From: Marinagarivorans sp.
GTDB lineage: Bacteria > Pseudomonadota > Gammaproteobacteria > Pseudomonadales > Cellvibrionaceae
NCBI GenBank assembly: GCA_028281865.1
Contig: JANQJB010000068.1
Location: 1 to 60,354 of the forward strand
Reading direction: 5' to 3'
DNA: 60,354 nucleotides
The notes below the pieces were generated by a model that searched no databases, was not told the DNA's origin, and saw only the letters and a program-made list of their open reading frames with translations. The position numbers were made by a program, and so were the translations under genes. Shown piece after piece: positions 2,715-48,700 of the stretch (position 1 is the first letter of the stretch; each line of letters starts with the position of its first letter).

Positions 2715-2725
2715 AAGCTTCGCTC

Positions 2726-3133: not shown

Positions 3134-3151
3134 TACAATCGCCTCACTGTA

Positions 3152-27773: not shown

Positions 27774-29571
27774 GTTCCTGCCTCACGAGCGGTAAAGTAA
27801 TAGTTACGCGTGTAAATAGCTTAGCTTTATAAGCAATATCAACTCCGTACCGTTCGCCATACTCGTTTTGTATTCGTTTATTAACAATATTAATTCCCAG
27901 ACCTTTGGAATCGTTCGTCGATTGATAAAGACCAGCATTATCTTCAACAGTTAGATAAATACATTCTTTTTTTTGAAATAAGCCAATAATTATTTGGCCC
28001 TTATTCAGACTTTGAGAGGTACCGTGCTTTATTGCATTCTCGACAATTGGCAACAAAGTAAAACTCGGTATTTCACAGGCTGTTAAACTTTTATCAATGT
28101 CAATTACAATATCGAGATTATCACCGTAACGCGCCTTCTCAATAACCAAATAGGAATCGAGCTGCTCAAGCTCTTCACTTAGACTAGTAGCACTCGAATC
28201 GCGTTTAAGATTTTTCCGCATAAATGAAGAGAGATGCAGTAGCAAGTCTCTGGCAGAATCACCATTTTTTCGCATAACCGCGCTAATCGTATTTAAAGCA
28301 TTAAATAAAAAGTGAGGATTGACCTGAGCCTGAAGTAATTTCAATTCGGATTGGACCAACAGTGTTTGCTGCTGATTATAACGGTTATTCAACAATTGGT
28401 TAGACAGTAACCTCGCAATGCCTTCACCCAAACTACGGTTAATATTTAAAAAAAGTTTATTTTTATTTTCAAAAAGCAGTAGTGTAGCGACGACTTTTTG
28501 GTTTTCGTGCAGAGGGATAATCAAACAAGATCCAAAGGGGCAATCATTGGAATACGGACAATCGTATTGAATTTCAACGCCATTAATAAAAATAACCTTA
28601 TTTTGACTAATGGCACATTCGACCTCCTCTGAGGCAATTTTTAAGCCCGGTTCATGGTGTTCTGCCCCCTTCCCAATCGTGGCAATAATTTTTTCTGTAT
28701 CTGTAATAACAACCGCACCAATATCAGTTTCCTCTTGAATAATTTTAGCAAGCATTTCCCCCGTTTTTGTTGTCATCGATTTGGTTAAAATACCAACGCT
28801 GCGCTCAGCTATGCGCAGTGCTTGGCTTGAAAGGTTAGACGCGAGTTTGTCGTACTCCCTTTTTCTGTCGACGATTAAACTAATAAATATTGCCGAACCA
28901 AACGAGTTGATAAAAACCATTGGCAATGTAATTTCCTTGAGTAAATTTATTGTTTCTTCACTGGGAGGCGCAAAAAGTACGATATCTCCGGAGGGTCTCG
29001 CGGCAAATAAAACAACTAATTTGCCTATACACTGAAGACAAAATGTTAGGCCTCCCGCAACCAAGGGGCTAAAAATAAGATCGGATCTATGTGCTCGTCT
29101 AAGGTAGTAACTAAAAAGACCCGCGACGCAACCCGCAAGCAAGGTATTAAATGCACATGGAATTGCAGTCCACCCTCCAATGGCATAACGATGAATCCCG
29201 CCAACAAGCCCAATGAAAAAACCAACTATAGGTCCGCCAAGCAAGCCTCCCACTATTGCACCCATATCACGGGTATTGGCAATAGCGATGTTTTCATTGT
29301 TGTTTTTACTATTAGCGTTTTCTGAGATGAATTGCGTTTCGCCAAGTTGATCCTTAAGTGGAATACGATTTCCTAACTCTGTTGCAAGAATGCAAAAGAT
29401 TGAGAAAAAAATACAAAATAATATTTTATGGGGAAGGCGAGTAGACTGTTCAATAAAGGGTTTAAATATTGGCGTTTTACTCGCCAAATATGCAATGATT
29501 AAAAACAATCCCATATGTTGGATAAGCGTGATAAATATCTCTAGCATATCGGGCTCCGCAGTGTAGTCCAT
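27751..29571 (-). CDS. Sensor histidine kinase of the LytS/YehU type
   Basis: 606 aa. Multi-TM N-terminus, central GAF-like region, His-kinase motif NPHFLFNALNTISAV and a C-terminal HATPase domain. Confidence 0.9.
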   Translation of the reverse strand: MDYTAEPDMLEIFITLIQHMGLFLIIAYLASKTPIFKPFIEQSTRLPHKILFCIFFSIFCILATELGNRIPLKDQLGETQFISENANSKNNNENIAIANTRDMGAIVGGLLGGPIVGFFIGLVGGIHRYAIGGWTAIPCAFNTLLAGCVAGLFSYYLRRAHRSDLIFSPLVAGGLTFCLQCIGKLVVLFAARPSGDIVLFAPPSEETINLLKEITLPMVFINSFGSAIFISLIVDRKREYDKLASNLSSQALRIAERSVGILTKSMTTKTGEMLAKIIQEETDIGAVVITDTEKIIATIGKGAEHHEPGLKIASEEVECAISQNKVIFINGVEIQYDCPYSNDCPFGSCLIIPLHENQKVVATLLLFENKNKLFLNINRSLGEGIARLLSNQLLNNRYNQQQTLLVQSELKLLQAQVNPHFLFNALNTISAVMRKNGDSARDLLLHLSSFMRKNLKRDSSATSLSEELEQLDSYLVIEKARYGDNLDIVIDIDKSLTACEIPSFTLLPIVENAIKHGTSQSLNKGQIIIGLFQKKECIYLTVEDNAGLYQSTNDSKGLGINIVNKRIQNEYGERYGVDIAYKAKLFTRVTITLPLVRQEHDQYINC

Positions 29572-31577: not shown

Positions 31578-32576
31578 CTATTCTGTCAGGCTAGTCTCTT
31601 CAGGCCCTTCGCCGGTCGGCTTGTAATCCAGGTCTTGAGTGAGAATAAACTTGTCGAGTTCAGCCCCGTCTTCACGCATCGAAATTTTTATAATGTGAAC
31701 ACCTGGATTTTCCACCGTAACCATTGCCATCATATTTTCTTGAGCAAAGCAGCCATTGTGCGGTTCGCGGCGAGTTTTGACCCACATCCAAGCGTTATTT
31801 ATCGGGCCAGTTTGTTTATAGTACTTACAACCGCCATTAGGGTTATTGCATTCAGGATTGCGCTGACAGCCTTCAACACGTTCGCCAAGCGTTGGCCAAT
31901 CATCATTGATTCCCAAGTGGAGACTATTGGATTCGGTGTCAGAGATAAACATGCGCACCCAGAAGCGATAATCGCCTGCATTGAGAAAATCCACTTCATA
32001 GGTCAAGATAGCGGCACCCCCGCCGTTATCCATCAAACCCGGTTTTTCACCATCTCTGCCATTGGGGCCATGCGCTTGCTTTTCGTCTGGTAGAGCTTCT
32101 ACGTAAACCTTTGCACTTGCGCTGTTAAAGTGTGGGCCATCCTTATCGCGAACCTTAGGTACATTTCCGGCTTTAATAACTCGCCACGTCTGCTTGAAGT
32201 CGCCATTACTGCCGCTCATTTGTGACAAGAAGTTTTCTGCCTCAATCACGACCATGCCGTCGACTTCAACAAACTTGCCAGCCACGGGCTCACCGCCTCC
32301 ACCCGAGGAAGATGAACTGGAGGAAGAACTTGAACTGCTCGAGCTGCTTGAACTACTAGAGGAGCTGCTGGAGCTTGAAGATGAACTTGATGAGCTGGAG
32401 GAACTCGATGAACTTGAGCTGCTCGATGATGAGCTACTAGAGCTTGAAGAAGAGCTCGATGATGAGCTAGAACTACTAGTATCTACAGATTGAGCCGGGC
32501 CGTCCTCGGCGACACAGGCGGTCAGGAGCAGCACGCCAAAGATGCATAGGCTCGCTTTAATATTCGGTATTAACAT
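31578..32576 (-). CDS. Lipoprotein with a ~61-residue polyserine linker and a C-terminal beta-sandwich, carbohydrate-binding-like domain
   Basis: 332 aa. Lipobox LLLTAC, then an uninterrupted run of about 61 Ser, then a Cys/Trp-containing domain (…GINDDWPTLG…CKYYKQTGPINNAWMWV…). Confidence 0.7.
   Translation of the reverse strand: MLIPNIKASLCIFGVLLLTACVAEDGPAQSVDTSSSSSSSSSSSSSSSSSSSSSSSSSSSSSSSSSSSSSSSSSSSSSSSSSSSSSSSSSSGGGGEPVAGKFVEVDGMVVIEAENFLSQMSGSNGDFKQTWRVIKAGNVPKVRDKDGPHFNSASAKVYVEALPDEKQAHGPNGRDGEKPGLMDNGGGAAILTYEVDFLNAGDYRFWVRMFISDTESNSLHLGINDDWPTLGERVEGCQRNPECNNPNGGCKYYKQTGPINNAWMWVKTRREPHNGCFAQENMMAMVTVENPGVHIIKISMREDGAELDKFILTQDLDYKPTGEGPEETSLTE
32295..32477 (-). repeat. Codon-diversified polyserine linker coding repeat, about 61 Ser
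   Basis: Uses all six Ser codons (AGC, AGT, TCA, TCG, TCT, TCC). It generates the shadow ORF 32194..32493(+), EEELELLELLE, on the opposite strand. Confidence 0.8.
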
Positions 32577-33059: not shown

Positions 33060-34541
33060 CTAGGGCCCAAACACAATTTCTGTAGGCAATAAAAAACGGG
33101 CCAATCCATAGCCACTGAAAAGCAAGCGACTTTTCGAATCGACAGCCATGGCGCGATTGTTCCAGGGTGTAGTAAAGATTGTTCCTGCGTCGGCGCCTAA
33201 ATACGAACCCATTGCACCTACGGGATTGCGTATCGATGGAATTACCTTATTGTTTCCGTCGATGGCAATAAAAAAAGCATCGTTGCCATCGCTAATAAGC
33301 GTCGAACCCTGTGCAAAAGTAACATCACTTGACGGTAAAAATAGTACATTCTGCATTTCGCCGGCGTATTCAACAAAATTGAATTGGTCGACAACTAGGC
33401 CAAGCTCTCTATCAACAATAGATATTGAAGGTACTTGCGGTTCACCTATCATCAGCAGAGTTCCGACGAGCACTAAATCGCCCGAGGAGCGAACAACCAA
33501 ATCCCGATAGTAGCCAACGCCGTCATATTCGTGAACAACATATCCGTTCCCGAGGCCAAATTTAACATTGATGCCGCCATTCAAATCTAACGAAAAAACC
33601 GCCGGATTGCCTTCTACTAAGCCACCAAAGTAGAGATTTTCGTCAGCAAGCGCCATGCTCAGAATATAGCTCTCCGGATCCGCTGAATTTACTATTGGCG
33701 TAAACAGCACAATACCATTTTGACCAAAGTCATTATCGAACTGACCGTTTGCCGTTAGTCGAAGCACCGCCGCAGAAGTACCAAATAAATATTGCCTTTT
33801 TCCGGCAATGTATAAGCTGTTATTTTCGTGATAAAAAACGATATCGGCTATTTTCACCGTATTGTAAATACCACTTCCGTCAAAAAAATCACTGAGAATT
33901 GTCACCCCGTTTGAACCGAAGTCGGTATCGAGATTGCCCTCGCTATCAAACGAAACGATTCTGGAATCTAACAGCCCGGTTATCGCCAAAAATATTGAAC
34001 CGTCTGACTTTTCCTCGATTGCATAAGTTTCTACCAGATCTGCGCCATCTAACGAATAAGACACACGACCGTCAATGCCGTAAGATTCATCCAATGCTCC
34101 ATCACTATGGAACCTCGAGATCACCACCGTATCGCTTGACTCTTCAGACGCGAGCATATACTGGTCATTCTCCAAAACCAGTAAGTTTTGCAGCACATCC
34201 GGAGAGAAATGCTGTCTTGAAATCCCAAGCCTGCGATCGGGATCTTCACCGAAACTCGTGTCTAAAATAAATTGATTATTTTCGCTTGGGGCTTCGCTAT
34301 TGGGTTTACCTGATGAACTTGACGCACTCGAAGAGCTCGCACTACTAGCCGAACTAGAAGAACTCGAGCCCGTCGAGGTTGACGCACTGCCTGATGAAGA
34401 CGATGAGGTACTCGACCCACCACCACTTGAAGTATCGTTTACCGAATCAACTGAATTTTCATTACTACTTCCACAAGATGCCAAGAACCAGACACAAAAA
34501 GCTGCGAAGGTAATTTTCCAAATACAATTGATAGACATCAT
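33060..34541 (-). CDS. Lipoprotein with a Ser-rich linker and a beta-propeller-like repeat domain (repeated D..FG.NG motifs)
   Basis: Lipobox FLASC. Ser/Gly-rich linker (encoded at 34307..34430). Repeats DESYGIDGRV, DTDFGSNGV, DNDFGQNGI, NVKFGLGNGY. The track ORF starts at 34565. An internal Met at 34541 or 34538 is the likely start. Confidence 0.65.
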   Translation of the reverse strand: MMSINCIWKITFAAFCVWFLASCGSSNENSVDSVNDTSSGGGSSTSSSSSGSASTSTGSSSSSSASSASSSSASSSSGKPNSEAPSENNQFILDTSFGEDPDRRLGISRQHFSPDVLQNLLVLENDQYMLASEESSDTVVISRFHSDGALDESYGIDGRVSYSLDGADLVETYAIEEKSDGSIFLAITGLLDSRIVSFDSEGNLDTDFGSNGVTILSDFFDGSGIYNTVKIADIVFYHENNSLYIAGKRQYLFGTSAAVLRLTANGQFDNDFGQNGIVLFTPIVNSADPESYILSMALADENLYFGGLVEGNPAVFSLDLNGGINVKFGLGNGYVVHEYDGVGYYRDLVVRSSGDLVLVGTLLMIGEPQVPSISIVDRELGLVVDQFNFVEYAGEMQNVLFLPSSDVTFAQGSTLISDGNDAFFIAIDGNNKVIPSIRNPVGAMGSYLGADAGTIFTTPWNNRAMAVDSKSRLLFSGYGLARFLLPTEIVFGP

Positions 34542-34569
34542 TCGACACTCCAAATCACTTAACAAATAC

Positions 34570-34761
34570 TTATTTTGACGCCGTCTCCAAAAACTTACCG
34601 CACTCTGAAATATTAGTGATCTGCCCCGATTCCACTAGGCTCTTACATTTTTTTGCCTCTTCCAATTTATTGGAATATGGCAACGCTCCGGTGTTCATAG
34701 GAATTGCATTACAAGCACTGAGAACGCACGCTGAAACTACCACTGCCATGATCTTATTCAT
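34570..34761 (-). CDS. Small predicted lipoprotein (63 aa)
   Basis: MNKIMAVVVSACVLSAC... signal peptide with lipobox LSAC. Short, so uncertain. Confidence 0.35.
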   Translation of the reverse strand: MNKIMAVVVSACVLSACNAIPMNTGALPYSNKLEEAKKCKSLVESGQITNISECGKFLETASK

Positions 34762-34970
34762 AATAACTCCAAGAAAACTATCGTGTTAATACAGGAAAAC
34801 TGTCGTGTTAATAGAAGCTAAATAAGTGGGAAAATTAGATAGAGTCGCTAGCCATCCTTCGCCACTTTTGCCCGCGGCGAAATAATAGAGGCAGCTGAAT
34901 ACGAGAGGCAATATAGGAAATACTAGGGTTTACTATCCATCGACTAAGTGATAACCCGAGCGATAAAGGC

Positions 34971-37900
34971 TTAAAATTGACAACGATCTATCAATTTATT
35001 CATGGTGTTTAAAAAGTTTTGGGCTTCTTTTTTATGTTTGAAAGAAGTCGCCATATAGGTGTTTTTTTGAACATACCCTTTTGTAGACAACACTTCTTCC
35101 CAGTCGTCCATTTCCATTTTTTTGGAAGTAGCGACCCAAGATCTCATCAGAAAGCTCTGACTCGGATTACGATATTTGAATACCACCGCCCAAAACTTGT
35201 CCCCTACATAATCGTACTGCTGAGCGAGCATCTGTGATTTCATCATCTCTTTCACGGTCGCGTTCATCGCCGTATTTTCAATCACCAGCGTATTGAAGGT
35301 AACTTGTTTAAATGCCTCACGGTCTAATATTTCAACTGGACGCTTTAAATCCTTTAGTTTTAGTTGATAACTGTTAACAAAATGTTGATCTTCCAAGTTG
35401 TTTTTAAAAAGGTAATCTAAATGACACGAGCCAGTACCATAACGAAACTGGTCGTTGAATTCCTTAACTGAAGAACTGTGCTTTCTGCCATCCCGAAAAC
35501 GCAATGTAATTTTAAAAGGCTTACGTTTGCTCAATATATCATTTAACTGAGCGACAAGGTCTTCAGATTGGTTTACCCCTTGAAAAACAGGTAACTTGCG
35601 AACCGCACGATTGGCGAGAAGTAATGGCGTCTGACTATTTGGCAGACCATCGGTAAATTGAGCAGTAAGTTCCTTCGTCTTTAAAAAAACCTCTTCCAAT
35701 TCAACTATTTCATCACGATTAATATCTGCCTCTGCATTTAAACTGTTTAGCAAAGCGTAAGTAAACAGTCCGTGCTTTTTATCGTCCAGTTCTTGACTGT
35801 ATTCACCTTCGCCCGACGCGGCCAATATCGCGTATGAGCTAGAAGCAGATTTATACGAGAGCGAGCGAGGTGAAAAGGTTCCTCTCGCTCCACCGGCGTG
35901 GCAGGTATCCAAAATGAGTAAACGTTTTCCTAATACCTTAGAAAGTGAGGAATGCAGCTCTTTCCAACTCAATAATGCGCCGCTGGCCTGGTTTTTGGTC
36001 TGCATCGCCACCAAGTCATCGTCTCGCATATCACTCGGCAAGACGTAATAATTTCCAAAATCGTCATTCACACCATGTGCGGCAATAAAAACAATATTTG
36101 TATCATTATGGTCCGAAGCCTCTAGCCGCTTAAGGGCTCTAAGAATATTAGCTTTTATCGGTTTGAGCCTAGAGTCGTCATTAAGCTCAATGACTTCAAC
36201 GGAGTCGTAAATTTCTGTTAAGCCTTGAAAATAAGAAGCGATTGCTTGCGCGTCGTTGACCGCATAATTTAACGTAAAGCTCTTGTCAGACAAGCTTTTA
36301 TATTGATTCACGCCAATCGCGATAACCCTTAATTTTCCGTTTTTCTTATTCTTCTTGTCCCCAGTTTTATCTTTATTGTAAACAATAGTTTTGCTATACC
36401 CCATCCCATGGTTATTTAAGCTCTCAATATGGATCACATTTTTTCCATATACCATTGGAACGCTTGCAGAAAAATTTTTGCTATTTTTAAACGTATTTTT
36501 ATCCGAAAAAACGGGAATATCGTTTACGAAAACCGAAACGCTATTGTTAGCCGTTCCACCTGGATCAACTTGAAACCTCAATAAAGCCTCAGAGTCGACT
36601 GAAGTGAACTTCGACTCGTGCTGATCAATTACAACTTTCGGAAGCTTTATCCCTCGCAGGGTATTCCCCGAAGGTGGAACCGATTTCGATATTCCTTTGA
36701 CTGCGATATCTATTTTATCGGGTGAATAACCAAACCTCTCAAATTGATACGCAGAGTAAAAGCGAGGCAAGCCCACAAACTCTTGTTCAAGCCACCCAAT
36801 AGATCGTTCAAAATCTACCGTTGCATCAAAATAACCACTCTCGTCCCATACAACCCAATTTGAACCGTCTTGAGAGAAATATGCCGATAAAACAAGATCT
36901 CCTGTTTTTACATTTCGCCACTCCATCGCACCGCTGCTAAATAACAGCACCAGTGTCCGTTTGTTCTGCGATAAACCAGCACTCACTATTATATTTTCGA
37001 GTTTTTTTCGCCACAGTAGCCGCCCTGTTTTATTTGCCAAAGCGATTTCCATGATCCCGAGGTTGAAATCAGGCTCATAACCCAAACAAAAATTTGCTGG
37101 AAGAGGCTTGACCGTGAGATACGGCCGGTTTTTGGTTTTATTAATTTTGCATTTGTCTGAGAATGAAAGTGGATAAGAGGGGCCATCGGGTGTATAACTC
37201 AAATCCTCAGCTTTTAGATGCGTAAGTGTTCGCTGTAACAAATCAAAACGCAAAACGTCCAAAATAGGCATTTCGTCTAATTCGTAAGCCTCCGTAAAGC
37301 TTGGTTTCATTGCGTTGAAGCGAACTAAATCAATTACCGCTCCATCTTTATGGACTTTCATTGAATTGGGTGCATTCAGGTAGGGTTGTCGGTCAGTCGA
37401 CCATTGCTTTCCTACCCAATTTAACTCTGCTAGAACACTGCTCGGCAATTTTATTTTTGCTTTCGACGACACTCCGCGTAACTTCGGATATTTTAGAATG
37501 TAAGGCTTGCGACCCCCGACTTGACCAGCGAAAAACAGCTGGATTTCTTTTCGTTTTTCATCGACCCGAACGCGGGGTCTATTCATAAAACCTGCTAACT
37601 TGCTGGTACAGTATTCGGACGCAAGACTTCCAGAGGTTGAGAATAACTCGAAGCAAACCAATGCTTTATTATTTTTTTGGCGATAAGAAATCGACAGAAA
37701 ATAATTATTATCGATAAAACTACTGTATCTAAGGCCTTTGAGCTCCTTGTTAAAAATCTTATCCCCGGAATTCAGTTGCAGCAGCGTGACAGTTCTCTCG
37801 TCTCGATAAGCCGCCCCCATCTGCGGCTCTTTACCTGAAACCGTAACGGCGAATTTTCCATTGCCTGATAGAGATACATCTACAATTGTACCTTCACTAA

Positions 37901-38348
37901 CCGGAACAGTTTCGACCAATTTTTCCTGAGCCCAATCAATAAAATACAATTGATTTAAAGCCTCCCGCCCTTTTTTATTATCCCCGCCTTTAGTATCGCC
38001 ACCGACGACGACATACCGCTCTTTTTTGTCAAGCGCAATTGCATGTAACAAGCCGTCATTTGTGCCTGCGCTGGGAACAAACAAGGTTTTTATTAGCTCT
38101 TCAGATTCGATATCGCGAATTTTTATTCTCTTGTCAACTCCGGCCGAAAAAATAAGCGGATTGACTTTTCCTGCAACAACAACCGGATTCTTACGCTGGT
38201 GAAAAGGTAAATCCAAAGTCAAAGCCCATTCGCCGTTGCGCTGCACGCTCGCTGAGTTGGCGAAAGCTCCATGCATATGAATGTGTATGGCAACAATAAA
38301 TAAAGTAAATTTTAAAACGGTCAATAGGCCTAGCTGCATACTAATCAA
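34971..38348 (-). CDS. Periplasmic WD40/beta-propeller protein with a caspase-like (peptidase C14) domain, an orthocaspase
   Basis: 1125 aa. Signal peptide. WD40-like N-terminal half. Caspase segment LRVIAIGVNQYKS...NYAVNDAQAIASYF... with the His box FIAAHGVNDDFGNYYVLPSD and the Cys box RLLILDTCHAGGARG. C-terminal extra domain. Confidence 0.8.
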   Translation of the reverse strand: MISMQLGLLTVLKFTLFIVAIHIHMHGAFANSASVQRNGEWALTLDLPFHQRKNPVVVAGKVNPLIFSAGVDKRIKIRDIESEELIKTLFVPSAGTNDGLLHAIALDKKERYVVVGGDTKGGDNKKGREALNQLYFIDWAQEKLVETVPVSEGTIVDVSLSGNGKFAVTVSGKEPQMGAAYRDERTVTLLQLNSGDKIFNKELKGLRYSSFIDNNYFLSISYRQKNNKALVCFELFSTSGSLASEYCTSKLAGFMNRPRVRVDEKRKEIQLFFAGQVGGRKPYILKYPKLRGVSSKAKIKLPSSVLAELNWVGKQWSTDRQPYLNAPNSMKVHKDGAVIDLVRFNAMKPSFTEAYELDEMPILDVLRFDLLQRTLTHLKAEDLSYTPDGPSYPLSFSDKCKINKTKNRPYLTVKPLPANFCLGYEPDFNLGIMEIALANKTGRLLWRKKLENIIVSAGLSQNKRTLVLLFSSGAMEWRNVKTGDLVLSAYFSQDGSNWVVWDESGYFDATVDFERSIGWLEQEFVGLPRFYSAYQFERFGYSPDKIDIAVKGISKSVPPSGNTLRGIKLPKVVIDQHESKFTSVDSEALLRFQVDPGGTANNSVSVFVNDIPVFSDKNTFKNSKNFSASVPMVYGKNVIHIESLNNHGMGYSKTIVYNKDKTGDKKNKKNGKLRVIAIGVNQYKSLSDKSFTLNYAVNDAQAIASYFQGLTEIYDSVEVIELNDDSRLKPIKANILRALKRLEASDHNDTNIVFIAAHGVNDDFGNYYVLPSDMRDDDLVAMQTKNQASGALLSWKELHSSLSKVLGKRLLILDTCHAGGARGTFSPRSLSYKSASSSYAILAASGEGEYSQELDDKKHGLFTYALLNSLNAEADINRDEIVELEEVFLKTKELTAQFTDGLPNSQTPLLLANRAVRKLPVFQGVNQSEDLVAQLNDILSKRKPFKITLRFRDGRKHSSSVKEFNDQFRYGTGSCHLDYLFKNNLEDQHFVNSYQLKLKDLKRPVEILDREAFKQVTFNTLVIENTAMNATVKEMMKSQMLAQQYDYVGDKFWAVVFKYRNPSQSFLMRSWVATSKKMEMDDWEEVLSTKGYVQKNTYMATSFKHKKEAQNFLNTMNKLIDRCQF

Positions 38349-39315
38349 GCTCGCGACGCAAATACTCTAAATGTTCCCTCGCCATCCATTTTGTACTCTC
38401 AAAAGGCGATGACTGGCTCAACAACAGACTGCGCTCGGCATATTCCAAGCTCTCGTCCTTTTTACCCCGATATTCCGCAATCTTTGATAACAGGAGCTCC
38501 CTTTGAACGCCATATTCATCGCTCAGCTTTTTAAGATTGTTTTCCGCTTCAACTAAGTATTTTTGATGAATTAATTCACTGGACTCAATTAAAGTTTGCA
38601 ATGTTTTATTGTCATTGCGGATTGTTTCGTCCCGCCAGCTTTTTAAGGGGTTGTCCGAGGAAATACGAATATTCATCCAGTTTGTTCGCTGCTGCGAACA
38701 AGGTGTTTGGCTGGGGCTATTACACAGTAACACACGATATTTAAGGTCGGGCTGTGTAATTGTTTTAGAGAGGTCAAACTCACCACCGGTAATTCCCTTT
38801 ATTTTTCGATCGACCCGAGGCACATCCGACATCGTGTCAAAGAGATAAAGATCGACAGGGCTTTGGGGGATCCATTTAAGTAGCGGTGCCGCTAAAAAAC
38901 GTTGCTGATAGGTAGGCGATGTAATCACCACACCTTGGTTAAGTGAGCCTGTTTCACCTCGAAAACGGCGAGCGGTCCACTTCGGAAAAGCTGAAGGAAG
39001 GCACACTTCATTGGGGTTTTGCCTTGGTGATAAATATTCCACCCGCCTTTCTTTATTGCCACAGACTATAGCAATAGAGGCTTTTTTTGATGCATCGCTT
39101 AAACGCCAGTGAGCTGGCATAAGGTCTCCCGGTTTTACCGGCAAGCTAGTTTTTTTAGCGCCAAACCGTTGGTTCACCTTTGGACTGCCTTTTACGGCAT
39201 ACACCACATAGTATTTCTGCGTAATAACTTCTTGCGCTGCCTCAACCATTGGAACAGCAAAAACAAAGCCAGCAAAAATGTGTAAAAACTTACTCTTGTT
39301 CAACAACCCACCCAT
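38341..39315 (-). CDS. Secreted/periplasmic protein of unknown function with a helical C-terminal region
   Basis: Signal peptide MGGLLNKSKFLHIFAGFVFAVPMVEAAQE. The track ORF starts at 39366 and overlaps the upstream gene. The internal Met at 39315 is the likely start. Confidence 0.5.
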   Translation of the reverse strand: MGGLLNKSKFLHIFAGFVFAVPMVEAAQEVITQKYYVVYAVKGSPKVNQRFGAKKTSLPVKPGDLMPAHWRLSDASKKASIAIVCGNKERRVEYLSPRQNPNEVCLPSAFPKWTARRFRGETGSLNQGVVITSPTYQQRFLAAPLLKWIPQSPVDLYLFDTMSDVPRVDRKIKGITGGEFDLSKTITQPDLKYRVLLCNSPSQTPCSQQRTNWMNIRISSDNPLKSWRDETIRNDNKTLQTLIESSELIHQKYLVEAENNLKKLSDEYGVQRELLLSKIAEYRGKKDESLEYAERSLLLSQSSPFESTKWMAREHLEYLRRELD

Positions 39316-40312
39316 ACCATGCTCTTTCAAGAAAAGGTTTCGCCTCACCGTAATGAAACTGCTCACAAACAGTAGCCTCGCGTTGATAATTTATATTGAG
39401 GTTTTGCAGAAGCATGGCAGTAAGGCAATTCTTGTAATAGGCGTGACGATTTGGTTTTACTCCTACTGAAAATTGCTGTAATTGCGCCAGCGATACTTCG
39501 GCTTTTTTATTGTGGCCCGACTCCAACTCGGCCCAAATCAAATTCTTCAATACAGTTAGCTTCTGCTCATTGGTTAAATTTTGAAAAGCCTCGGTATTGA
39601 CAACGGATTCAAGCCGAATGCGCGCGGAATCCGCCCGCCCGTGTACAATTTCCAACCAAGAGAGGTCGTTTATCGCTTCAAGATTAAACGGCTTTTTACT
39701 CAACACTTGTTTGTATAAAGCCATTGCTCGCTCAGGCTCGGTTTCTTGCAGTAACGAAGCCTGCTGCAAAATCTTGTCTTCGTCGGGAAGCGCGATTAAC
39801 ACAATCAGCAGAAGCGCTAAAATGCCCACTGCAAGCGTCGAAGCGGCAATATAGAAAGTGCGGGAGCTGCGGACAACCGAAGAAAGCTTGTCTTCGCCCA
39901 GGTTTTGAGCACATTCATTTTCACGAGAAACTGGGTGCTCGCTTTCCTCTGATGGCTCAGGCGAACTCTTTTCACGAACATCGAAGAACAGCGCAAACTT
40001 GTCAGGGTGACAAGACTTCACCCACTGCCAAAAGCTTTGCTCCGTCTCACTGAGAGCTTTAAGCAATTTGCGGCAGTTATCAATTCTAAAGTTTGAATCG
40101 GAGTTTAGGCTCTCGTAACGCTTAACCGTTTTATCGCTGACAATAGCTTTTTCCGCCAGCCTCTCAATTGATAACGAAGGCTCATGTAGCTCGCGTTTCT
40201 GTCTTATATACGTTTTGAAAAGCCATTTGAATTCCGGGTCAGAAAGATGCTTTTTTTCAATATTTATTGTCTGATCATTCGCAAAATCGCCCTGGTCTAA
40301 GCTTTGCCCCAT
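39290..40312 (-). CDS. Membrane-anchored XRE-type HTH regulator with one TM segment and a periplasmic TPR-like domain
   Basis: 340 aa. N-terminal HTH-like segment LSIERLAEKAIVSDKTVKRYE. TM segment TFYIAASTLAVGILALLLIVLIAL. Periplasmic helical repeats. Confidence 0.5.
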   Translation of the reverse strand: MGQSLDQGDFANDQTINIEKKHLSDPEFKWLFKTYIRQKRELHEPSLSIERLAEKAIVSDKTVKRYESLNSDSNFRIDNCRKLLKALSETEQSFWQWVKSCHPDKFALFFDVREKSSPEPSEESEHPVSRENECAQNLGEDKLSSVVRSSRTFYIAASTLAVGILALLLIVLIALPDEDKILQQASLLQETEPERAMALYKQVLSKKPFNLEAINDLSWLEIVHGRADSARIRLESVVNTEAFQNLTNEQKLTVLKNLIWAELESGHNKKAEVSLAQLQQFSVGVKPNRHAYYKNCLTAMLLQNLNINYQREATVCEQFHYGEAKPFLERAWYGWVVEQE

Positions 40313-40492
40313 TTAATAACCCCTTCTGACCCGCAAAAGTCCCGATATTACCCGGTAAAGACCCTTTGCTGGGCTGTTTACAACAATCTCCGGCCTCTAA
40401 GCTTTTTCTCGTGAAAGCAATTTGACACTTGCTCAACGCAGCAACGATTTGCCAATAAAGCCAATTTGTTAAAAAGCTAGGAGGATATGAAC

Positions 40493-41044
40493 ATGCTAAT
40501 GCGGCAACAATATCAAAAACGCATTTACCTCTCTACTACTAAGAAAGAGCTGGATAAGATTGTGGCGTTTAGAAAGCAACATTACAAAAGCATATATCCA
40601 ACGATGAACCTAGATACGGAACCGTTGGATTTCTTCAGCCTAAATTTTTATTCGCAAGATTCCAATAACGATAGCGTAACGGGGGTTGCAAGGCTCGCGT
40701 TGGAAACCCCGTTCGGTTTTCCACAAGATCCCTATCTAGCGGAATATAGGAAAGGAAAGCGCTTAATGGAATTCGGTCGGTTCATTGTTCAACCCAGTAA
40801 CTCTGCATTACTGAAAAACTTTTACGCGGTCATTTATGAATGCGCTAGGGAGCTCGGTTACAACGCAATCATTATGGCAATGAAACCAAAAGACATACCT
40901 TTTCACAAGCGCCTAATGGACCTTCAAGTTATCAGTCAAGATACTGGAGTGAGCTACGGTGGCGCCATCTCCCTAAGCTGCGTCTCTTGGGAACTCGACA
41001 GAACAACACAGAAATTTTTTGCATGGGCGGGGGTAAACAAATGA
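40493..41044 (+). CDS. LuxI-like/GNAT-fold acyl-homoserine-lactone or N-acyl-amino-acid synthase candidate
   Basis: About 183 aa. Size and the EFGRFIV motif (compare the LuxI E-x-S-R-F motif) and the VAFRKQHY region suggest a LuxI-like fold. AGGAGG SD at 40479-40484. The track start 40487 is too close to the SD, so 40493 is the more likely start. Confidence 0.45.
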   Translation: MLMRQQYQKRIYLSTTKKELDKIVAFRKQHYKSIYPTMNLDTEPLDFFSLNFYSQDSNNDSVTGVARLALETPFGFPQDPYLAEYRKGKRLMEFGRFIVQPSNSALLKNFYAVIYECARELGYNAIIMAMKPKDIPFHKRLMDLQVISQDTGVSYGGAISLSCVSWELDRTTQKFFAWAGVNK

Positions 41045-41730
41045 AAGACTTCGATAATCGTACAATATATGAGCTATTCACATTTTTTATTCGGCAACCT
41101 TGCTGGAACGGATATGCAGATTCATTTCATGCTGTTACACCTTCCGCATTGCAAGAACTTAATAGAGAGGCGGCCAGCTGGCTTTTTGGTGAGGTTGCCG
41201 ACTTAGGTTGCGGGGCAGGCAAGCAAATTCCTTGCGTCAGTGAAAACCAGAAGGTGACTCGTTACACCGGGGTCGATATGTCAAAGAAAATGACCAAAAA
41301 GGCTCGTTGGATGGCGAGACAATTCCCGCATATCGAAGCACAAATTATTACAGACCGCATCGAAAACGTTTCCTTCGGGCCAGTTGATTCAATTGTATCT
41401 ATCAACAGTTACTATAGCTGGCCAAAGCCTGAAATGATTTTGTCGCACGCCAATCGCAACTTAAAGGAGAACGGCGTGTTCGTGCTTGCAACAGTCAACA
41501 ATCAACTTAACATGGAACGGCTCCTTAAAACAGCAAAGGCCGATTTGATTTCTCACCCCAATTGGTTTGAGTATGTAAAATACAATCTCAAAATTTGCAA
41601 AAACCCAAACTACAGATTTGTAAGTCTTGACACGCTAATAAGGCAAGTTCAGACTCACGGGTTTGAAGTTCTCGATGCCCATACTCGCTTTTATCAAGGT
41701 GGATTGAGTTTTCTTGTTCTGAAAAAATAA
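41041..41730 (+). CDS. Class I SAM-dependent methyltransferase
   Basis: Motif I VADLGCGAGK. Its start codon overlaps the stop of the upstream synthase gene (ATGA at 41041-41044), which suggests translational coupling. The track ORF begins at 40987. MKDFDN at 41041 is the likely start. Confidence 0.7.
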   Translation: MKDFDNRTIYELFTFFIRQPCWNGYADSFHAVTPSALQELNREAASWLFGEVADLGCGAGKQIPCVSENQKVTRYTGVDMSKKMTKKARWMARQFPHIEAQIITDRIENVSFGPVDSIVSINSYYSWPKPEMILSHANRNLKENGVFVLATVNNQLNMERLLKTAKADLISHPNWFEYVKYNLKICKNPNYRFVSLDTLIRQVQTHGFEVLDAHTRFYQGGLSFLVLKK

Positions 41731-41862
41731 ACATCTTAATTGAGCATCTGCTTAAATTTATTCGATGGTAGGAAAACGGTTAATCGCGTTGGCCTCTAGT
41801 TAAATGTCCGGCGCTGACTTACCGTTTTCCATTCTCCCAAACGTGATTTATAAGAGTAAAAT

Positions 41863-42666
41863 ATGCCTAACAGAAATTCACGCAGAATACTTGGAGAATT
41901 TGCCCATAAACTGTTTGAGTCCTCTTCTTTTGATCAAGCATTTTCAGCGTATCAAGAGCATGTGTTTCAGCTCAATTTTGAGGGCGTATTATACACCTAT
42001 ATCCCTCGCCCACTTGTCGAGAGTAACTTTCATCAAAAACCTGTATATATCGTTTCAAATTCCTATAGCCCTGAATACTTAACACATTACGCCGAAGCAC
42101 GATTTGAAAAATATGACCCCCTTATAAAAGCAGTAAATTCTAACGTTTCCGAAGTCGTGGATTGGCACGGCGATATCTGCGAGCATTTCCAAGGCGATGA
42201 TCCGAAGAGCAAAGAAGTCATTGAAACATCAAGACTCTACGGCATTACCAACGGTTTGACTATTCCAACAATGAACGACAGAAGAGCCTTATCTGGAGCA
42301 AGCTTTATTTCCTCAGAAAGTCATCATTATCAGACCTTACTAAGAGAGAATTCTGGGCTATTAGCATCAATTACTAAAATCTTTCATGCTCTTGTTGCAT
42401 CCGATGCAATATTTCATTCCAAGACTTTTATTAAGCCATTGTTTTCGTCGCTAAGCGAAAAAGAGTTACGCCTTCTCAAATATTTGGCTGAAGGCAAAGC
42501 ACCCTGCCAAATTGAGGGTGAACTGGGCTGTAGTGCAAAATATATTGAACAACTTATGCTCAGCCTGCGCCGAAAAGTATCAGGGTTCACTTCCGAACCC
42601 CAAAAAACGATCAATAGGAACCAGCTTTTATATTATGCTGGCCTATTGAATTTTATGGATACCTAA
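41863..42666 (+). CDS. LuxR-family regulator with an N-terminal autoinducer-binding-like domain and a C-terminal HTH
   Basis: 267 aa. N-domain pattern YLTHYAEARFEKYDPLIKAV...VVDWHGD (the Y...Y...D-DP...W pattern of the autoinducer-binding domain). C-terminal HTH LSEKELRLLKYLAEGKAPCQIEGELGCSAKYIEQLMLSLRRKV. Confidence 0.75.
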   Translation: MPNRNSRRILGEFAHKLFESSSFDQAFSAYQEHVFQLNFEGVLYTYIPRPLVESNFHQKPVYIVSNSYSPEYLTHYAEARFEKYDPLIKAVNSNVSEVVDWHGDICEHFQGDDPKSKEVIETSRLYGITNGLTIPTMNDRRALSGASFISSESHHYQTLLRENSGLLASITKIFHALVASDAIFHSKTFIKPLFSSLSEKELRLLKYLAEGKAPCQIEGELGCSAKYIEQLMLSLRRKVSGFTSEPQKTINRNQLLYYAGLLNFMDT

Positions 42667-45783: not shown

Positions 45784-48700
45784 ATGTTAGGTCGCCTGCC
45801 TATCACGTCAAAAATCACGTGTCTATTGTTTTCACTAGTACTATCAACTGGTACCTATGCACAGGCTTGTGACGATAATTACGTTGCAAATACTCCCGTT
45901 CGCGACGATATTCTGATCCTAGTTAACGATAATTCCGTTGACTCCTGCGAGGTAGGTTTACATTACGCACAAGCACGCAATGTGCCGAAAGAAAATATTA
46001 TTCATATCGCCTCGCCTGCATTATACAAAATCGAATGGGATGATTTTCGCAGTATGATGGATCAAATTATTTTTCATTTACAGCAGCCGTCACTATTAAA
46101 ACCTGATGCCCCTCCCGCTCCGGTGTGCGCCGGAGCCAACCCACTCTATTGTTCTGAATCTGCCGATCATCTGAGAAGTTTTACCAAAATTAAATATATA
46201 GTGACCACTAAAGGTGTGCCCACTAATACGCAAATGCCGATGTCTCCTCTTATTCCTGATTCAGGTGGCCGGGATACACACGCGACCTCTGTGGATAATC
46301 ACCTTAAATTTTGGCTTCTGCGATATTTCCCTGAACCGTCCCAATTTAATTTCCAAGAACGTGAAAATGACTTTAGCTCAGATGGCAGAACGCTGAGGAT
46401 TGTTGATGTTGAACACGATGGTGAGTTCATCGTAGGTCGTATCGACGGCTATGATCTCAATTCGGCAAAAGTGCTGGTAGACAGGACGATTCGCTCCGAA
46501 CAGCAAGGTATTTTTGGTACAATTTATGGATCGACAAAATTCAAACTACCCCAATACCAGCCAGATGCGCCCTGGGCAGAAAATGCTTGGCGCTACCAAT
46601 TTGGTCTCGTGGGTGAAAGCGACCCCGTGTGCCGCGATTTAAGCTATTCTTCCAACTCTGGGCAAGCCCCCTCCCACTGCAAAGCGAAATTTGGGCAACC
46701 GGGAAGTGGTCCGGCTGTTCCCGGCAATATTGGCTCTCGCGTAGTAGATGGCTCTGAGGCGTTGGTATACCTTGGGCATTTACAAGGCCACAGAAGTGGC
46801 GGCAACCAAGGAGGTAAAAAAGGCGATTTTCGTACGATATTAAATATTGTAAAAGCCTCGGGCTGCCAACCACGCCTCTGCAAGGATCACGCGTCGCCGA
46901 CAGATTGTCGCTTGTCATCAACCGATCCGCTGAGAGAACTTAACACAGAATGTGTCGGCGTCAACGAAGGGTTTATTGGATATAATCATCAATCATACCC
47001 AATGGCTAATTTTTCTCTTTGGCCAACCTCATGGACCGGACCTCGAGGTCATACAGTTCGAAATCTAGCGTATCCGCGTGTACGAGATAACGACGGTCAT
47101 GGTGTAACGGATTCGAATAGTATTTGGTTTACTAACCTAGAAGATATAAACACCCCAACGTGTTACCCAGTTGGACATAGCGATTTTTCTCAACTCCCCT
47201 CTGTACCTTGCGCTAACCAATATCATATTCGTCTGCACCAAGATGTTGATGATGCAATTATCGCTGAAGGCAACCAATATCGACTGCAATTTTGGTACAA
47301 AAGTAATGTAACTTCGGCAAAACGTTTAAATGTCACTTTAAAATTCAGTAACCCTGCGGAAACAAATTTTGGACAAGTCATTCATCAAGTGACGCTAAGT
47401 AATGTTAGCGACTGGACATTGGTAGGGCCTCTTGATTATACCGTGCCCACTCTCAGTGGTGCCGCAAATCGCTTAAGCTTAGAAATTAGTTCGATAGATA
47501 ATACAACGGATGCCGAAATTGGACTCGATGATTTTTCCCTGATTGACCTTGGAACAAGCATTGAACAACTTAACAACGGTCAATTTAATTTAGGTCACGA
47601 ACAAGATTCTGCTGGCGATCACGCTGCAATGTTTATTAGTCGTCTCGGCGGAGTTGGATTTTGGGGAAGCGTTAGTCACTATCAAAGTGGTGGGCATTCA
47701 TTCGGAGGCAGTGTTCTACGCGGACTTTATTATTATTTCAAAGGCTTACCCTTAGGCGACGCGGTCTGGTTCGGTGACTCAAATAATAGCGGCATATTTT
47801 ATGGCGACCCTGTTTACTCGCCGCTTGCTGTTCGATTTGATGATTTAAATTTAAGTATCGGCGACACTGCACTCACAAATTCAACCATTAGTTTATTTGG
47901 TCAGGCTTTTAACGGTAGGGATAATAATGCAGTTAATACAACGTATTACATCGACTACTGCAATCAAAGCCACGATTTTTATGTTTGCGATGATTTGAAT
48001 GCCTGGAACACCTCAAACATTAGCGGATCTGGGCAATATTTAGCTAATGGTACCGCATTGCAATTTGGCGATTGGGATACGACTGGATTAACTCCGGGTG
48101 ACTATCTTTTGCGCTTAAGAGTCGAAACTCAAAATGTCAGTTCAGGCAATCCGCAATCGGGCAAAACCCAGAGTTTCAATGATTACTATGCCCTTACTCT
48201 ATATAACGCTAACGATGATGATGACGGTGATCTTTTATCCAATGCAAGTGAACTTGCGCTTGGTACAGACCCAACTGATCCTGATAGTGACGACGATGGC
48301 CTAAATGATTTTGAAGAAAATCAAACGGGCGCCGACCCCTTACGACATGCCTCGGAAGTCGACAGCGACGATGATGGTATGCATGATGACTGGGAATTGG
48401 TACATGGCACCTCTGCATTAATTCAGGATGCCCTTGTCGATTTAGATGGGGATGGAGTCGATAACATTATTGAGTTTTTGCAAGGAACACTACCGACAGA
48501 TAACACATCCAAACCGTGTATAAAAACATGGTATGTCGATTCGGGTTTGCCGGCCTCAGGTGGAGATGGTTCAGTTGACAACCCGTTTAAAACGATTCGC
48601 GACGCTCTCGCAAGTCCTAGTGTTAACCACGGTGATACGCTCTTCTTAAAGTTTACATCGAGTGATACTTTTCAGTTTTATTATGATCCAACTCCAGTTG

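What the first reader, a model, noticed from the sequence alone, without database searches (positions are those of the whole stretch)
34971..40312. Operon encoding a membrane-anchored XRE-HTH/TPR regulator, a periplasmic protein and a periplasmic WD40-caspase
Three co-oriented, overlapping genes (junction overlaps of 8 bp and about 26 bp) encode (i) a one-TM protein with a cytoplasmic XRE-like HTH and a periplasmic TPR domain, (ii) a signal-peptide protein of unknown fold, and (iii) a 1125-aa signal-peptide protein combining a beta-propeller with a complete caspase His/Cys dyad (HG...DTCHAG). The architecture suggests a regulated-proteolysis signalling or death module. A periplasmic caspase could cleave the regulator's sensor domain or the middle protein to release or activate the DNA-binding moiety. 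It is divergently arranged with the LuxI-like/LuxR module, so the whole 34.9-42.7 kb segment may be one regulatory island.
Basis: partly seen in the sequence, partly recalled or inferred. Interest (0 to 1): 0.6.

Follow-up and report, generated by a model that had tools for sequence, protein, structure and literature searches.

The report
Exported WD40-caspase behind orphan membrane regulator
Three tightly packed genes encode a membrane-anchored DNA-binding protein, a secreted protein found in no other sequenced organism, and an exported caspase-type protease from a widespread but unstudied bacterial family; the genes are real, but nothing shows that they work together as a proteolytic switch.

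Summary
Three co-oriented minus-strand genes (39290-40312, 38341-39315, 34971-38339) are packed stop-to-start. They encode (i) an HTH-TM-TPR protein, (ii) a signal-peptide protein with no detectable relatives, and (iii) a 1122-aa signal-peptide protein: beta-propeller, Ig-like domain, caspase domain, then a 200-aa C-terminal region of unknown fold. The His/Cys dyad is intact and invariant in 88 aligned family domains.

The protease is a divergent member of a large family of exported WD40-Ig-Peptidase_C14 proteins. At least 517 hits were found in representative genomes of many diderm phyla. WD40 is already documented as the commonest accessory domain of prokaryotic metacaspases.

The proposed regulated-proteolysis module has no comparative support. 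Genes 1 and 2 are orphans in billions of proteins. The only close homologue of the protease (55% identity, same sequencing run) lies directly after gyrB. Distant family members neighbour OmpA and DUF4384 envelope proteins, not regulators.

Genes 1 and 2 most resemble a ToxR/ToxS- or TcpP/TcpH-type co-component sensor cassette, an analogy of layout and not homology. The neighbouring "LuxI-like" gene is a FeeM-family N-acyl amino acid synthase.

Verdict: new member of a known kind, with low-to-moderate interest.

The parts
39290..40312 (-). Gene 1: 340-aa membrane-tethered regulator-like protein (P0017) with cytoplasmic XRE-like HTH, one TM segment and a periplasmic TPR domain
   Evidence: ORF. 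Pfam HTH_3 (sub-threshold) and TPR_19. Hydropathy. No homologue.
40049..40207 (-). XRE-type helix-turn-helix, residues 36-88 of gene 1
   Evidence: Pfam HTH_3 E 3.2e-4, 21.1 bits against a 23-bit cut-off. hhalign to a five-sequence XRE profile, E 0.0024, correct register.
39785..39862 (-). Single transmembrane segment of gene 1, about residues 151-176
   Evidence: Kyte-Doolittle maximum 2.87. Flanks are VVRSSR on the N side and PDEDK on the C side, which fits an N-in topology by the positive-inside rule.
39293..39754 (-). Predicted periplasmic TPR domain of gene 1, residues 187-340
   Evidence: Pfam TPR_19 at 187-241, E 1.4e-7, 32.2 bits, above cut-off. Weak NCBIfam TPR-protein matches over 188-295.
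38341..39315 (-). Gene 2: 324-aa signal-peptide protein (P0016), an orphan. The longest ORF begins at GTG 39366.
   Evidence: Only itself found among 5.8e9 clusters. The exhaustive HMMER search gave only a weak repeat hit. The AF2 model is unusable, pLDDT 41, with beta strands at 145-217 and three long helices at 223-323.
34971..38348 (-). Gene 3: exported beta-propeller / Ig-like / orthocaspase protein. It is 1125 aa from TTG 38348 and 1122 aa (P0001) from ATG 38339.
38259..38339 (-). Signal-peptide-like N-terminus of gene 3 (MQLGLLTVLKFTLFIVAIHIHMHGAFA|N)
   Evidence: Hydropathy. The AFA|N motif is shared with P0002. 67 of 83 caspase-bearing ORFs scored carry such a segment.
36750..38231 (-). 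Beta-propeller region, residues about 40-533
   Evidence: All-beta AF2 model with pLDDT about 65-85. Foldseek top hits are tandem WD40 propellers. It aligns to the WD40 region of P0003. No direct Pfam WD40 hit.
36372..36638 (-). Ig-like beta-sandwich, residues about 571-659
   Evidence: AF2 strands at 568-656. It aligns with the corresponding segment of P0003 and P0007.
35580..36332 (-). Caspase (Peptidase_C14-type) domain. Catalytic His758 is at 36075-36077 and Cys816 at 35901-35903.
   Evidence: NCBIfam caspase model E 5.6e-14. It aligns to PF00656-positive domains of P0003 and P0007. pLDDT 80-93. His, Gly, Asp(-2) and Cys are invariant in 88 of 88 aligned domains. Coordinates.
34974..35573 (-). 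C-terminal extension of about 200 aa with unknown fold, shared only with paralogue P0002
   Evidence: Other family members end after the caspase domain. phmmer finds the extension only in P0002. pLDDT below 50. Cys972 and Cys1120 are conserved in both paralogues.
40313..40486 (.). 174-bp divergent intergenic region between gene 1 and the FeeM-like gene, the presumed promoter region
   Evidence: Sequence. No sigma-70 consensus site on the minus strand there. No inverted repeat or lux-box pattern.

Best explanation
This is a lineage-specific three-gene operon of a gammaproteobacterium-like diderm.

Gene 3 encodes a Sec-exported, envelope-located orthocaspase of the metacaspase-like D-x-C-H-x-G type. 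Such enzymes are expected to cleave after Arg or Lys. A beta-propeller and an Ig-like domain probably act as the substrate- or ligand-recognition module. It is a divergent member of the widespread exported WD40-Ig-Peptidase_C14 family and carries an extra C-terminal domain.

Genes 1 and 2 look like a transmembrane transcription regulator and its overlapping periplasmic partner, laid out as in ToxR/ToxS, TcpP/TcpH and VtrA/VtrC co-component sensors. Gene 1 has a cytoplasmic XRE HTH, one TM segment and a periplasmic TPR domain. The most likely arrangement is that this pair senses an envelope or extracellular cue and controls transcription of its own operon, so the protease is its co-expressed output. 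The protease would then act on envelope or secreted proteins, not on the regulator.

Shown here: gene packing, domain composition, export signals, the catalytic dyad, family membership and the lack of conserved partners. Inferred: co-transcription, topology, DNA binding, protease activity and specificity, and any functional link among the three products.
For: - Packing: 26-nt overlap and a TAG-T-ATG junction.
- Regulator: HTH, TM and TPR features.
- Export: hydrophobic N-terminal segments on genes 2 and 3, and on 67 of 83 caspase-bearing ORFs scored. Non-catalytic Cys positions are conserved between P0001 and P0002, which fits disulfides in an oxidising compartment.
- Caspase domain: homology and an invariant dyad, with a confident caspase-domain model.
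- The family acts without these partners. At least 517 relatives exist in representative genomes, their recurrent neighbours are OmpA-like and DUF4384 envelope proteins, and the paralogue has no partner gene upstream, lying directly after gyrB.
- Diderm host: a flagellar cluster and an RND pump lie on the same contig.
- Codon usage of the three genes resembles the rest of the contig.
- Literature: WD40 is the commonest accessory domain of prokaryotic metacaspases, N-terminal TM or signal peptides are frequent, and OmpA occurs in 14 metacaspase operons (PMC3501461).
- Literature: co-component cassettes consist of an HTH-TM-periplasmic transcription factor plus an overlapping, fast-evolving periplasmic partner (PMC9214523).
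Against: - No expression, topology or activity data exist.
- The HTH match is below the Pfam threshold.
- Neither P0001 nor P0002 reaches any Pfam threshold for Peptidase_C14 or WD40 directly. Membership is transitive, through homologues.
- The co-component analogy is architectural only. The DNA-binding domain is XRE, not an OmpR-type winged helix. The periplasmic domain is TPR, not an alpha-beta sandwich. The partner is about 300 aa and could not be modelled.
- No promoter or operator was identified.
- Orphan status may reflect a poorly sampled lineage and not fast evolution.
- A membrane-anchored XRE HTH need not bind DNA. RodZ is a precedent (from memory).
Confidence: 0.5

Rival explanations
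1. The exported orthocaspase is the dedicated site-1 protease of the membrane-tethered regulator. It cuts the periplasmic TPR domain, intramembrane cleavage follows, and the HTH is released or destroyed. The middle protein acts like TcpH or ToxS, as a protector or co-sensor that gates the cut.
For: All three products are predicted to meet in the periplasm, and the genes are packed stop-to-start. A known precedent of the same layout exists: TcpH protects the transmembrane regulator TcpP from two-step regulated intramembrane proteolysis (PMC11323476), and co-component cassettes have overlapping genes (PMC9214523). TPR adaptors for periplasmic proteases, NlpI-Prc and LbcA-CtpA, are known (from memory).
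Against: There is no conserved linkage. The partners are orphans. The paralogue P0002 and 80 distant family loci lack any such partner. The family therefore has a partner-independent function. No cleavage-site evidence exists.
Confidence: 0.15
2. Fortuitous juxtaposition. A duplicated copy of the exported caspase gene landed downstream of two unrelated lineage-specific genes. The three products have no functional relationship beyond shared transcription.
For: A 55%-identical paralogue has no partner gene upstream, lying directly after gyrB. The partners have no relatives anywhere. Family neighbourhoods are heterogeneous. Published metacaspase operons are highly diverse (PMC3501461).
Against: A stop-to-start junction (TAG-T-ATG) and a 26-nt overlap are typical of translationally coupled, co-evolved genes. 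All three products share a predicted envelope location.
Confidence: 0.2
3. Gene 1 is not a transcription factor. It is a RodZ-like membrane scaffold whose XRE-fold domain binds a cytoplasmic protein, and whose TPR domain docks the two secreted proteins for an envelope-remodelling task.
For: The HTH match is sub-threshold. RodZ has the same layout of XRE-fold HTH, TM and periplasmic domain (from memory). One published metacaspase lies in an mreBCD operon (PMC3501461).
Against: No similarity to RodZ beyond the generic HTH alignment. No cell-shape genes nearby.
Confidence: 0.1
4. An anti-phage or abortive-infection (programmed death) module of the caspase/CHAT type, such as gasdermin-protease, EACC1 or STAND-linked caspases.
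For: The best NCBIfam hit is the EACC1-associated caspase model (E 5.6e-14). There is also a marginal Pfam CHAT hit.
Against: The NCBIfam score is 52 bits against a cut-off of 140. No PADLOC or PHROG match for any of the three proteins, apart from one marginal PHROG hit of unknown function on the regulator. No NTPase, gasdermin or EACC1 partner is present. The signal peptide places the protease outside the cytoplasm, where it could not execute the producing cell in the known ways.
Confidence: 0.03

Closest known systems
Prokaryotic metacaspases/orthocaspases with WD40 domains (Peptidase_C14, PF00656), surveyed by Asplund-Samuelsson et al. 2012 (PMC3501461) and Klemencic & Funk 2017 (PMC5756287)
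   Same: The caspase domain has an invariant His-Gly and D-x-C-H-x-G. A beta-propeller is the accessory domain. An N-terminal signal or TM segment suggests an extracytoplasmic location. Operon contexts are heterogeneous, and some include regulators.
   Different: Here the propeller is N-terminal and is followed by an Ig-like domain. The well-known cyanobacterial forms have C-terminal WD40 repeats. P0001 and P0002 are too divergent for direct Pfam detection. They carry a unique C-terminal domain of about 200 aa. None of these exported forms has a characterised function.
Exported WD40 / 'WxWTPxGYYDAS' linker / Ig-like / caspase proteins of Desulfobacterota, Accumulibacter, Chthonomonadales, Acidobacteriota and others (P0003-P0015; loci L003-L082). 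This family has no name and no study.
   Same: The same order of signal peptide, propeller, linker motif (NWVVWDESGYFDAT in P0001), Ig-like domain and caspase domain. Identity is 23-29% over residues 360-920.
   Different: Those proteins end right after the caspase domain. Their recurrent neighbours are OmpA-like, DUF4384 and second caspase genes. No HTH-TM-TPR or gene 2-like neighbour was found.
Co-component signal transduction cassettes: VtrA/VtrC, ToxR/ToxS, TcpP/TcpH, PsaE/PsaF (PMC9214523; PMC11323476)
   Same: A membrane-tethered regulator with an N-terminal cytoplasmic HTH, one TM segment and a periplasmic domain. A partially overlapping downstream gene encodes a periplasmic partner with a signal peptide or TM anchor. 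Sequences evolve beyond recognition. In TcpP/TcpH, periplasmic proteolysis of the regulator is the control point.
   Different: The DNA-binding domain here is XRE-type, not an OmpR-type winged helix. The periplasmic domain is TPR, not an alpha-beta sandwich. The partner is twice as long and is not demonstrably lipocalin-like. The known systems do not encode their protease in the operon, and none uses a caspase-family enzyme. This is analogy, not membership.
RNPP/RRNPP quorum-sensing receptors (Rap, Rgg, NprR, PlcR, PrgX)
   Same: An XRE-type HTH fused to a TPR domain.
   Different: RNPP proteins are soluble cytoplasmic peptide receptors of Gram-positive bacteria. Here a TM segment separates the HTH from the TPR domain, which places the TPR domain outside the cytoplasm. 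No sequence match was found.
Craspase (type III-E CRISPR gRAMP with TPR-CHAT/Csx29), from memory
   Same: A caspase-like protease with a TPR module whose cleavage of a partner protein controls a transcription-factor pathway.
   Different: It is cytoplasmic, RNA-guided and CRISPR-linked. There is no homology or shared context here, and PADLOC gave no hit.

Membership tests
Peptidase_C14 / orthocaspase (clan CD) | Sequence homology of the domain to the caspase/metacaspase p20 family | tested here: met
   NCBIfam caspase model NF047832, E 5.6e-14 over residues 674-892. phmmer E 3.7e-31 to P0003. The aligned region of P0003 is PF00656-positive at 56.6 bits against a 21.4-bit cut-off.
Peptidase_C14 / orthocaspase (clan CD) | Direct match to Pfam PF00656 at the gathering threshold | tested here: not met
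   No PF00656 hit at E<=0.1 for P0001, and no Pfam family at all for P0002 at E<=0.001. This reflects divergence and model sensitivity. It is not a defining biological feature of the family.
Peptidase_C14 / orthocaspase (clan CD) | Catalytic His-Cys dyad in the conserved H-G and D-x-C-H-x-G motifs | tested here: met
   AAHG and DTCHAG are present. His, Gly, Asp(-2) and Cys are invariant in 88 of 88 aligned domains.
Peptidase_C14 / orthocaspase (clan CD) | Caspase-haemoglobinase alpha/beta fold | tested here: inconclusive
Peptidase_C14 / orthocaspase (clan CD) | Cys-dependent endopeptidase activity, with Arg/Lys at P1 for the metacaspase type | not testable with these tools
   This needs an enzyme assay.
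Exported WD40-Ig-caspase family (unnamed) | Signal peptide, N-terminal beta-propeller, W-x-W-[TD]-x-x-G-Y-[YF]-D-A linker, Ig-like domain and C-terminal caspase domain, in that order | tested here: met
   The search pattern D[GKR]x[NR]WV[VAM]W[TD][PES] was derived from an alignment that includes P0001.
WD40 repeat (PF00400) | Recognisable WD40 repeats at the sequence level | tested here: not met
   No Pfam WD40 or beta-propeller hit for P0001 or P0002. The propeller is supported by the AF2 model and Foldseek and by alignment to the WD40-positive P0003. It is best described as a beta-propeller homologous to WD40 propellers.
XRE-family HTH (PF01381, HTH_3) | Match to the HTH_3 model at the gathering threshold | tested here: inconclusive
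   21.1 bits against a 23-bit cut-off, E 3.2e-4.
ToxR-like / co-component transmembrane transcription regulators | N-terminal cytoplasmic DNA-binding domain, single TM segment and periplasmic domain, with an overlapping downstream gene for a periplasmic partner | tested here: met
   The topology is predicted, not shown.
ToxR-like / co-component transmembrane transcription regulators | OmpR-type winged-helix DNA-binding domain, VtrA/ToxR-fold periplasmic domain and lipocalin-like partner | tested here: not met
   The DNA-binding domain is XRE-like and the periplasmic domain is TPR. The partner model is unusable. The locus is therefore an analogue, not a member.
RNPP quorum-sensing receptors | Soluble cytoplasmic HTH-TPR protein | tested here: not met
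   A strong TM segment at residues 151-182 lies between the HTH and the TPR domain.
LuxI-type AHL synthase (for the neighbour at 40487-41044) | Match to the autoinducer synthase family | tested here: not met
   The only Pfam hit is FeeM, PF21926, at 33.1 bits against a 27-bit cut-off. No NCBIfam hit.
Known anti-phage defence systems with caspase/CHAT proteases | Match to PADLOC models or the presence of partner modules (gasdermin, NTPase, EACC1, CRISPR) | tested here: not met
   No PADLOC hit. The NF047832 score is 52 against a cut-off of 140. No such partner genes occur in 24.7-51.3 kb.

The most novel reading that the evidence does not exclude
The trio is a self-contained trans-envelope switch. 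An exported orthocaspase is the dedicated site-1 protease of a membrane-tethered XRE/TPR transcription factor, and the orphan middle protein acts as a TcpH-like protector or co-sensor. If true, this would be the first caspase-family enzyme assigned to regulated proteolysis of a transcription factor in the bacterial periplasm. It would also give a first functional handle on the exported WD40-Ig-caspase family, which spans more than 500 species.
Probability: 0.1. Interest if true: 0.7.

Novelty: new member of a known kind. Interest (0 to 1): 0.3.

Why it matters
Exported WD40-caspase proteins occur in hundreds of diderm species, and none has a known substrate or role. Here one is packed stop-to-start behind a membrane-tethered regulator and a secreted partner. 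That gives a small set of candidate interactors that could be tested by western blot in a Cys816Ala background. It is a hypothesis generator, not a discovery. The partners are unique to this genome, so anything learned about the link may not transfer to the rest of the family. The unmodelled 200-aa C-terminal domain shared by the two paralogues, and the adjacent FeeM-methyltransferase-LuxR cluster, are minor additional leads.

Tried and rejected
- Homologue searches for the regulator and the middle protein returned only self hits. These were the word-indexed 5.8e9-cluster search, an exhaustive HMMER search of 1.84e9 representatives for the middle protein, and two metagenome scans. The one weak hit, P0018 at E 1.5e-6, is a seven-fold repeat in a 1779-aa surface protein and is not informative.
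- phmmer of both partners and of the C-terminal extension against all six-frame ORFs of the 80 related loci found nothing. A crude XRE HMM on the same ORFs found three soluble HTH proteins and none with a TM segment. That HMM did not recover the window's own regulator either, so the test has low sensitivity.
- The first genome scan, with a 15-sequence alignment, failed for lack of conserved stretches. The 5-sequence alignment worked.
- The cluster look-up gave no names or accessions. The SRA run number appears in no paper.
- AF2 of the middle protein from a single sequence gave pLDDT 41 and is unusable, so no fold search was attempted. The C-terminal 200 aa of the caspase protein were not modelled.
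- PADLOC and PHROGs gave no meaningful hits. Rfam found nothing in the window.
- No inverted repeat or lux-box pattern occurs in the divergent intergenic region. No consensus promoter lies upstream of gene 1, and no intrinsic terminator follows gene 3.
- Pairwise BLASTP among the three proteins showed no internal similarity.

Full report
**1. What is in the sequence**

Three minus-strand ORFs occupy 34971-40312.

- Gene 1 (39290-40312, 340 aa) starts 8-9 nt after a GAAGGGG ribosome-binding site.
- Gene 2 is listed from GTG 39366. The ATG at 39315 has an AAAGAG site 6 nt upstream and is the start used in the public gene call (324 aa, P0016). It overlaps gene 1 by 26 nt.
- Gene 3 is listed from TTG 38348, which gives an 8-nt overlap. 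The public call uses ATG 38339, and the alignment with its paralogue supports that start. The junction then reads TAG-T-ATG.

Under either choice the genes are packed stop-to-start, as in translationally coupled operons. No sigma-70 consensus promoter was found upstream of gene 1, and no intrinsic terminator after gene 3. Codon usage and GC content of the three genes resemble the rest of the contig.

The contig carries a flagellar gene cluster at 0.5-20 kb and an RND efflux pump at 53-57 kb, so the host is a diderm. The gyrB fragment next to the paralogue is 74% identical in DNA to E. coli gyrB. This suggests a gammaproteobacterium.

**2. The three proteins**

*Gene 1.* It has a sub-threshold Pfam HTH_3 match at residues 36-88 (E 3.2e-4, 21.1 bits against 23) and an above-threshold TPR_19 match at 187-241. 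A single strongly hydrophobic segment at 151-182 has Arg residues on its N side and PDEDK on its C side. By the positive-inside rule this places the HTH in the cytoplasm and the TPR domain in the periplasm.

*Gene 2.* It has a signal-peptide-like N-terminus (MGGLLNKSKFLHIFAGFVFAVPMVEA|AQ), four cysteines and no family match. Single-sequence AF2 failed (pLDDT 41). It suggests only a beta-rich middle part and three long C-terminal helices.

*Gene 3.* It has a hydrophobic N-terminus ending AFA|N, conserved in its paralogue. AF2 with a 15-sequence alignment gives a beta-propeller at about 37-530 (pLDDT 65-85), an Ig-like sandwich at 568-656, a confident caspase-type alpha/beta domain at 670-920 (pLDDT 80-93), and an unmodelled tail at 923-1122. 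Foldseek against the PDB returns tandem WD40 propellers.

**3. Is it a caspase?**

Pfam Peptidase_C14 does not hit the protein directly. An NCBIfam caspase model does, at E 5.6e-14, although far below that model's own cut-off, so the protein is not an EACC1-type member.

phmmer links it at E 3.7e-31 to P0003 and at weaker E-values to a dozen other proteins that carry PF00656 and WD40. The alignments run through the whole caspase domain and superimpose AAHG on AGHG and DTCHAG on DTCHAG or DACNSG. P0003 and P0007 pass the PF00656 threshold over exactly that region.

I aligned 88 caspase domains: the window's, the paralogue's and 86 from related loci. The catalytic His, the following Gly, the Asp two residues before the Cys, and the Cys itself are invariant in all of them. 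The D-x-C-H-x-G motif is the metacaspase/orthocaspase form, which cleaves after basic residues. That last point is from established knowledge and was not tested here.

**4. The family**

They occur in Desulfobacterota, Accumulibacter and other Betaproteobacteria, Chthonomonadales, Acidobacteriota, Nitrospirota, Bacteroidota, Spirochaetota and others.

The typical member is 950-1130 aa. It has the same order of signal peptide, propeller, a W-x-W-T-P-x-G-Y-Y-D-A linker, an Ig-like domain and a caspase domain. It ends right after the caspase domain. Of 83 caspase-bearing ORFs scored, 67 have a signal-peptide-like N-terminus. Several of the exceptions run off a contig end or look mis-started. The family is therefore exported.

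The literature already records three relevant points (PMC3501461; PMC5756287):

- WD40 is the most frequent accessory domain of prokaryotic metacaspases (10.9%).
- N-terminal TM helices or signal peptides are common.
- OmpA occurs in 14 metacaspase operons.

I found no functional study of the exported propeller-first form.

The window protein and its paralogue P0002 (55% identity) are divergent members. They carry a unique C-terminal extension of about 200 aa. Six non-catalytic Cys positions are conserved between them, which fits disulfides in an oxidising compartment.

**5. Is the trio conserved?**

No. Gene 1 and gene 2 found only themselves in the 5.8-billion-cluster protein collection. An exhaustive HMMER search with gene 2 over 1.84 billion representatives gave only a weak, repeat-inflated hit to a surface protein. 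Metagenome scans with either protein found nothing.

P0002 comes from the same sequencing run and lies 113 nt downstream of the end of gyrB, with no partner gene upstream. Neither partner has a relative in any six-frame ORF of the 80 related loci.

The recurrent neighbours there are DUF4384 lipoproteins, OmpA-like proteins, second caspase genes and adenylate cyclases, plus generic ABC ATPases and response regulators. The protease family clearly works without these partners. This shows only that the linkage is specific to this lineage. Orphan status could reflect fast evolution or a poorly sampled lineage, and I cannot tell which.

**6. How it most likely works**

Genes 1 and 2 reproduce the layout of co-component signal transduction cassettes such as VtrA/VtrC, ToxR/ToxS, TcpP/TcpH and PsaE/PsaF. 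These have a membrane-tethered transcription factor (cytoplasmic HTH, one TM segment, periplasmic domain) followed by a partially overlapping gene for a periplasmic partner. Their sequences have evolved beyond recognition (PMC9214523).

This is analogy, not membership. The DNA-binding domain here is XRE-type, the periplasmic domain is TPR, and the partner is twice as long and could not be modelled.

My preferred reading (confidence about 0.5) is that this pair senses an envelope cue and drives its own operon, with the exported orthocaspase as the co-expressed output acting on envelope or secreted proteins.

There the partner protects the regulator from two-step regulated proteolysis (PMC11323476). 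The caspase would be an operon-encoded site-1 protease. It remains possible (about 0.15) but has no support beyond co-localisation and packing.

Three other readings remain:

- Chance juxtaposition after duplication of the caspase gene (about 0.2).
- A RodZ-like, non-DNA-binding scaffold (about 0.1).
- A death or defence module (about 0.03). This is unlikely because the protease is exported, no PADLOC model or informative PHROG family matches, and no NTPase, gasdermin or EACC1 partner is present.

**7. The 'regulatory island'**

The divergent genes are three:

- a FeeM-family N-acyl amino acid synthase (PF21926, not LuxI);
- an overlapping SAM-dependent methyltransferase;
- a LuxR-type regulator with an autoinducer-binding domain and a sub-threshold GerE HTH.

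The 174-bp shared intergenic region has no inverted repeat or lux-box-like pattern. Adjacency is the only link to the trio.

**8. Verdict**

The protease is a new, divergent member of a known kind, the exported WD40-type orthocaspases. The operon partners are unique to this genome. Interest is 0.3. It could serve as an entry point to an unstudied protease family, but nothing here would surprise a specialist, and the proposed mechanism cannot be supported by comparison.

Noticed in passing
window 40487-42666 (+): A FeeM-family N-acyl amino acid synthase (not LuxI) overlaps a SAM methyltransferase and is followed by a LuxR-type regulator with an autoinducer-binding domain and a sub-threshold GerE HTH. 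Together these could make and sense an N-acyl amino acid (methyl ester) signal instead of an AHL. N-acyl alanine methyl esters of Roseovarius come to mind, from memory.
   Followed up: partly
window 34768-34811 (-), upstream of the small ORF at 34570-34761 (-): Two copies of a perfect 17-nt core, TTAACACGA[C/T]AGTTTTC, lie 22 nt apart and overlap a promoter-like site (34789 to 34760). They sit just upstream of a 63-aa lipoprotein gene (MNKIMAVVVSACVLSAC...) that leads into the DUF5122 lipoprotein gene. The 22-nt period and the ACAGTT core recall LytTR-type direct-repeat sites (AgrA, ComE). A LytS-like kinase and a LytTR regulator pair lies at 27057-29571. The motif occurs nowhere else in the window.
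   Followed up: partly
L001 (Logan contig of run SRR20820735), 2-208 and 321-3710: A 55%-identical paralogue of the caspase protein (P0002, 1129 aa, same C-terminal extension) lies 113 nt downstream of the end of gyrB, with no partner gene upstream. This is an unusual position next to a core replication-origin-region gene.
   Followed up: partly
window 31578-32576 (-) and 33060-34565 (-): Two secreted Ser-rich proteins lie downstream on the same strand. One has an uninterrupted run of about 65 Ser residues and a GH115_C-like C-terminus. The other is a Ser-rich lipoprotein with a DUF5122 beta-propeller repeat. Both could be envelope substrates of the protease, though this is purely speculative.
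   Followed up: no
window 45784-51231 (+): A 1815-aa ORF has no Pfam or PADLOC match at all.
   Followed up: no
L050 2484-13062; also L010, L051, L053 and L061: Some Desulfobacterales and other genomes carry two or three tandem copies of the exported WD40-Ig-caspase gene on one strand. This echoes the multi-metacaspase operons reported for Desulfococcus (PMC3501461).
   Followed up: no
window 34974-35573 (-), residues 926-1125 of gene 3: The C-terminal extension of about 200 aa is shared only by the two paralogues. It has a conserved Cys pair (972 and 1120), no family match, and AF2 pLDDT below 50. It may be a new domain, with a pro-domain, inhibitory or sorting role.
   Followed up: partly
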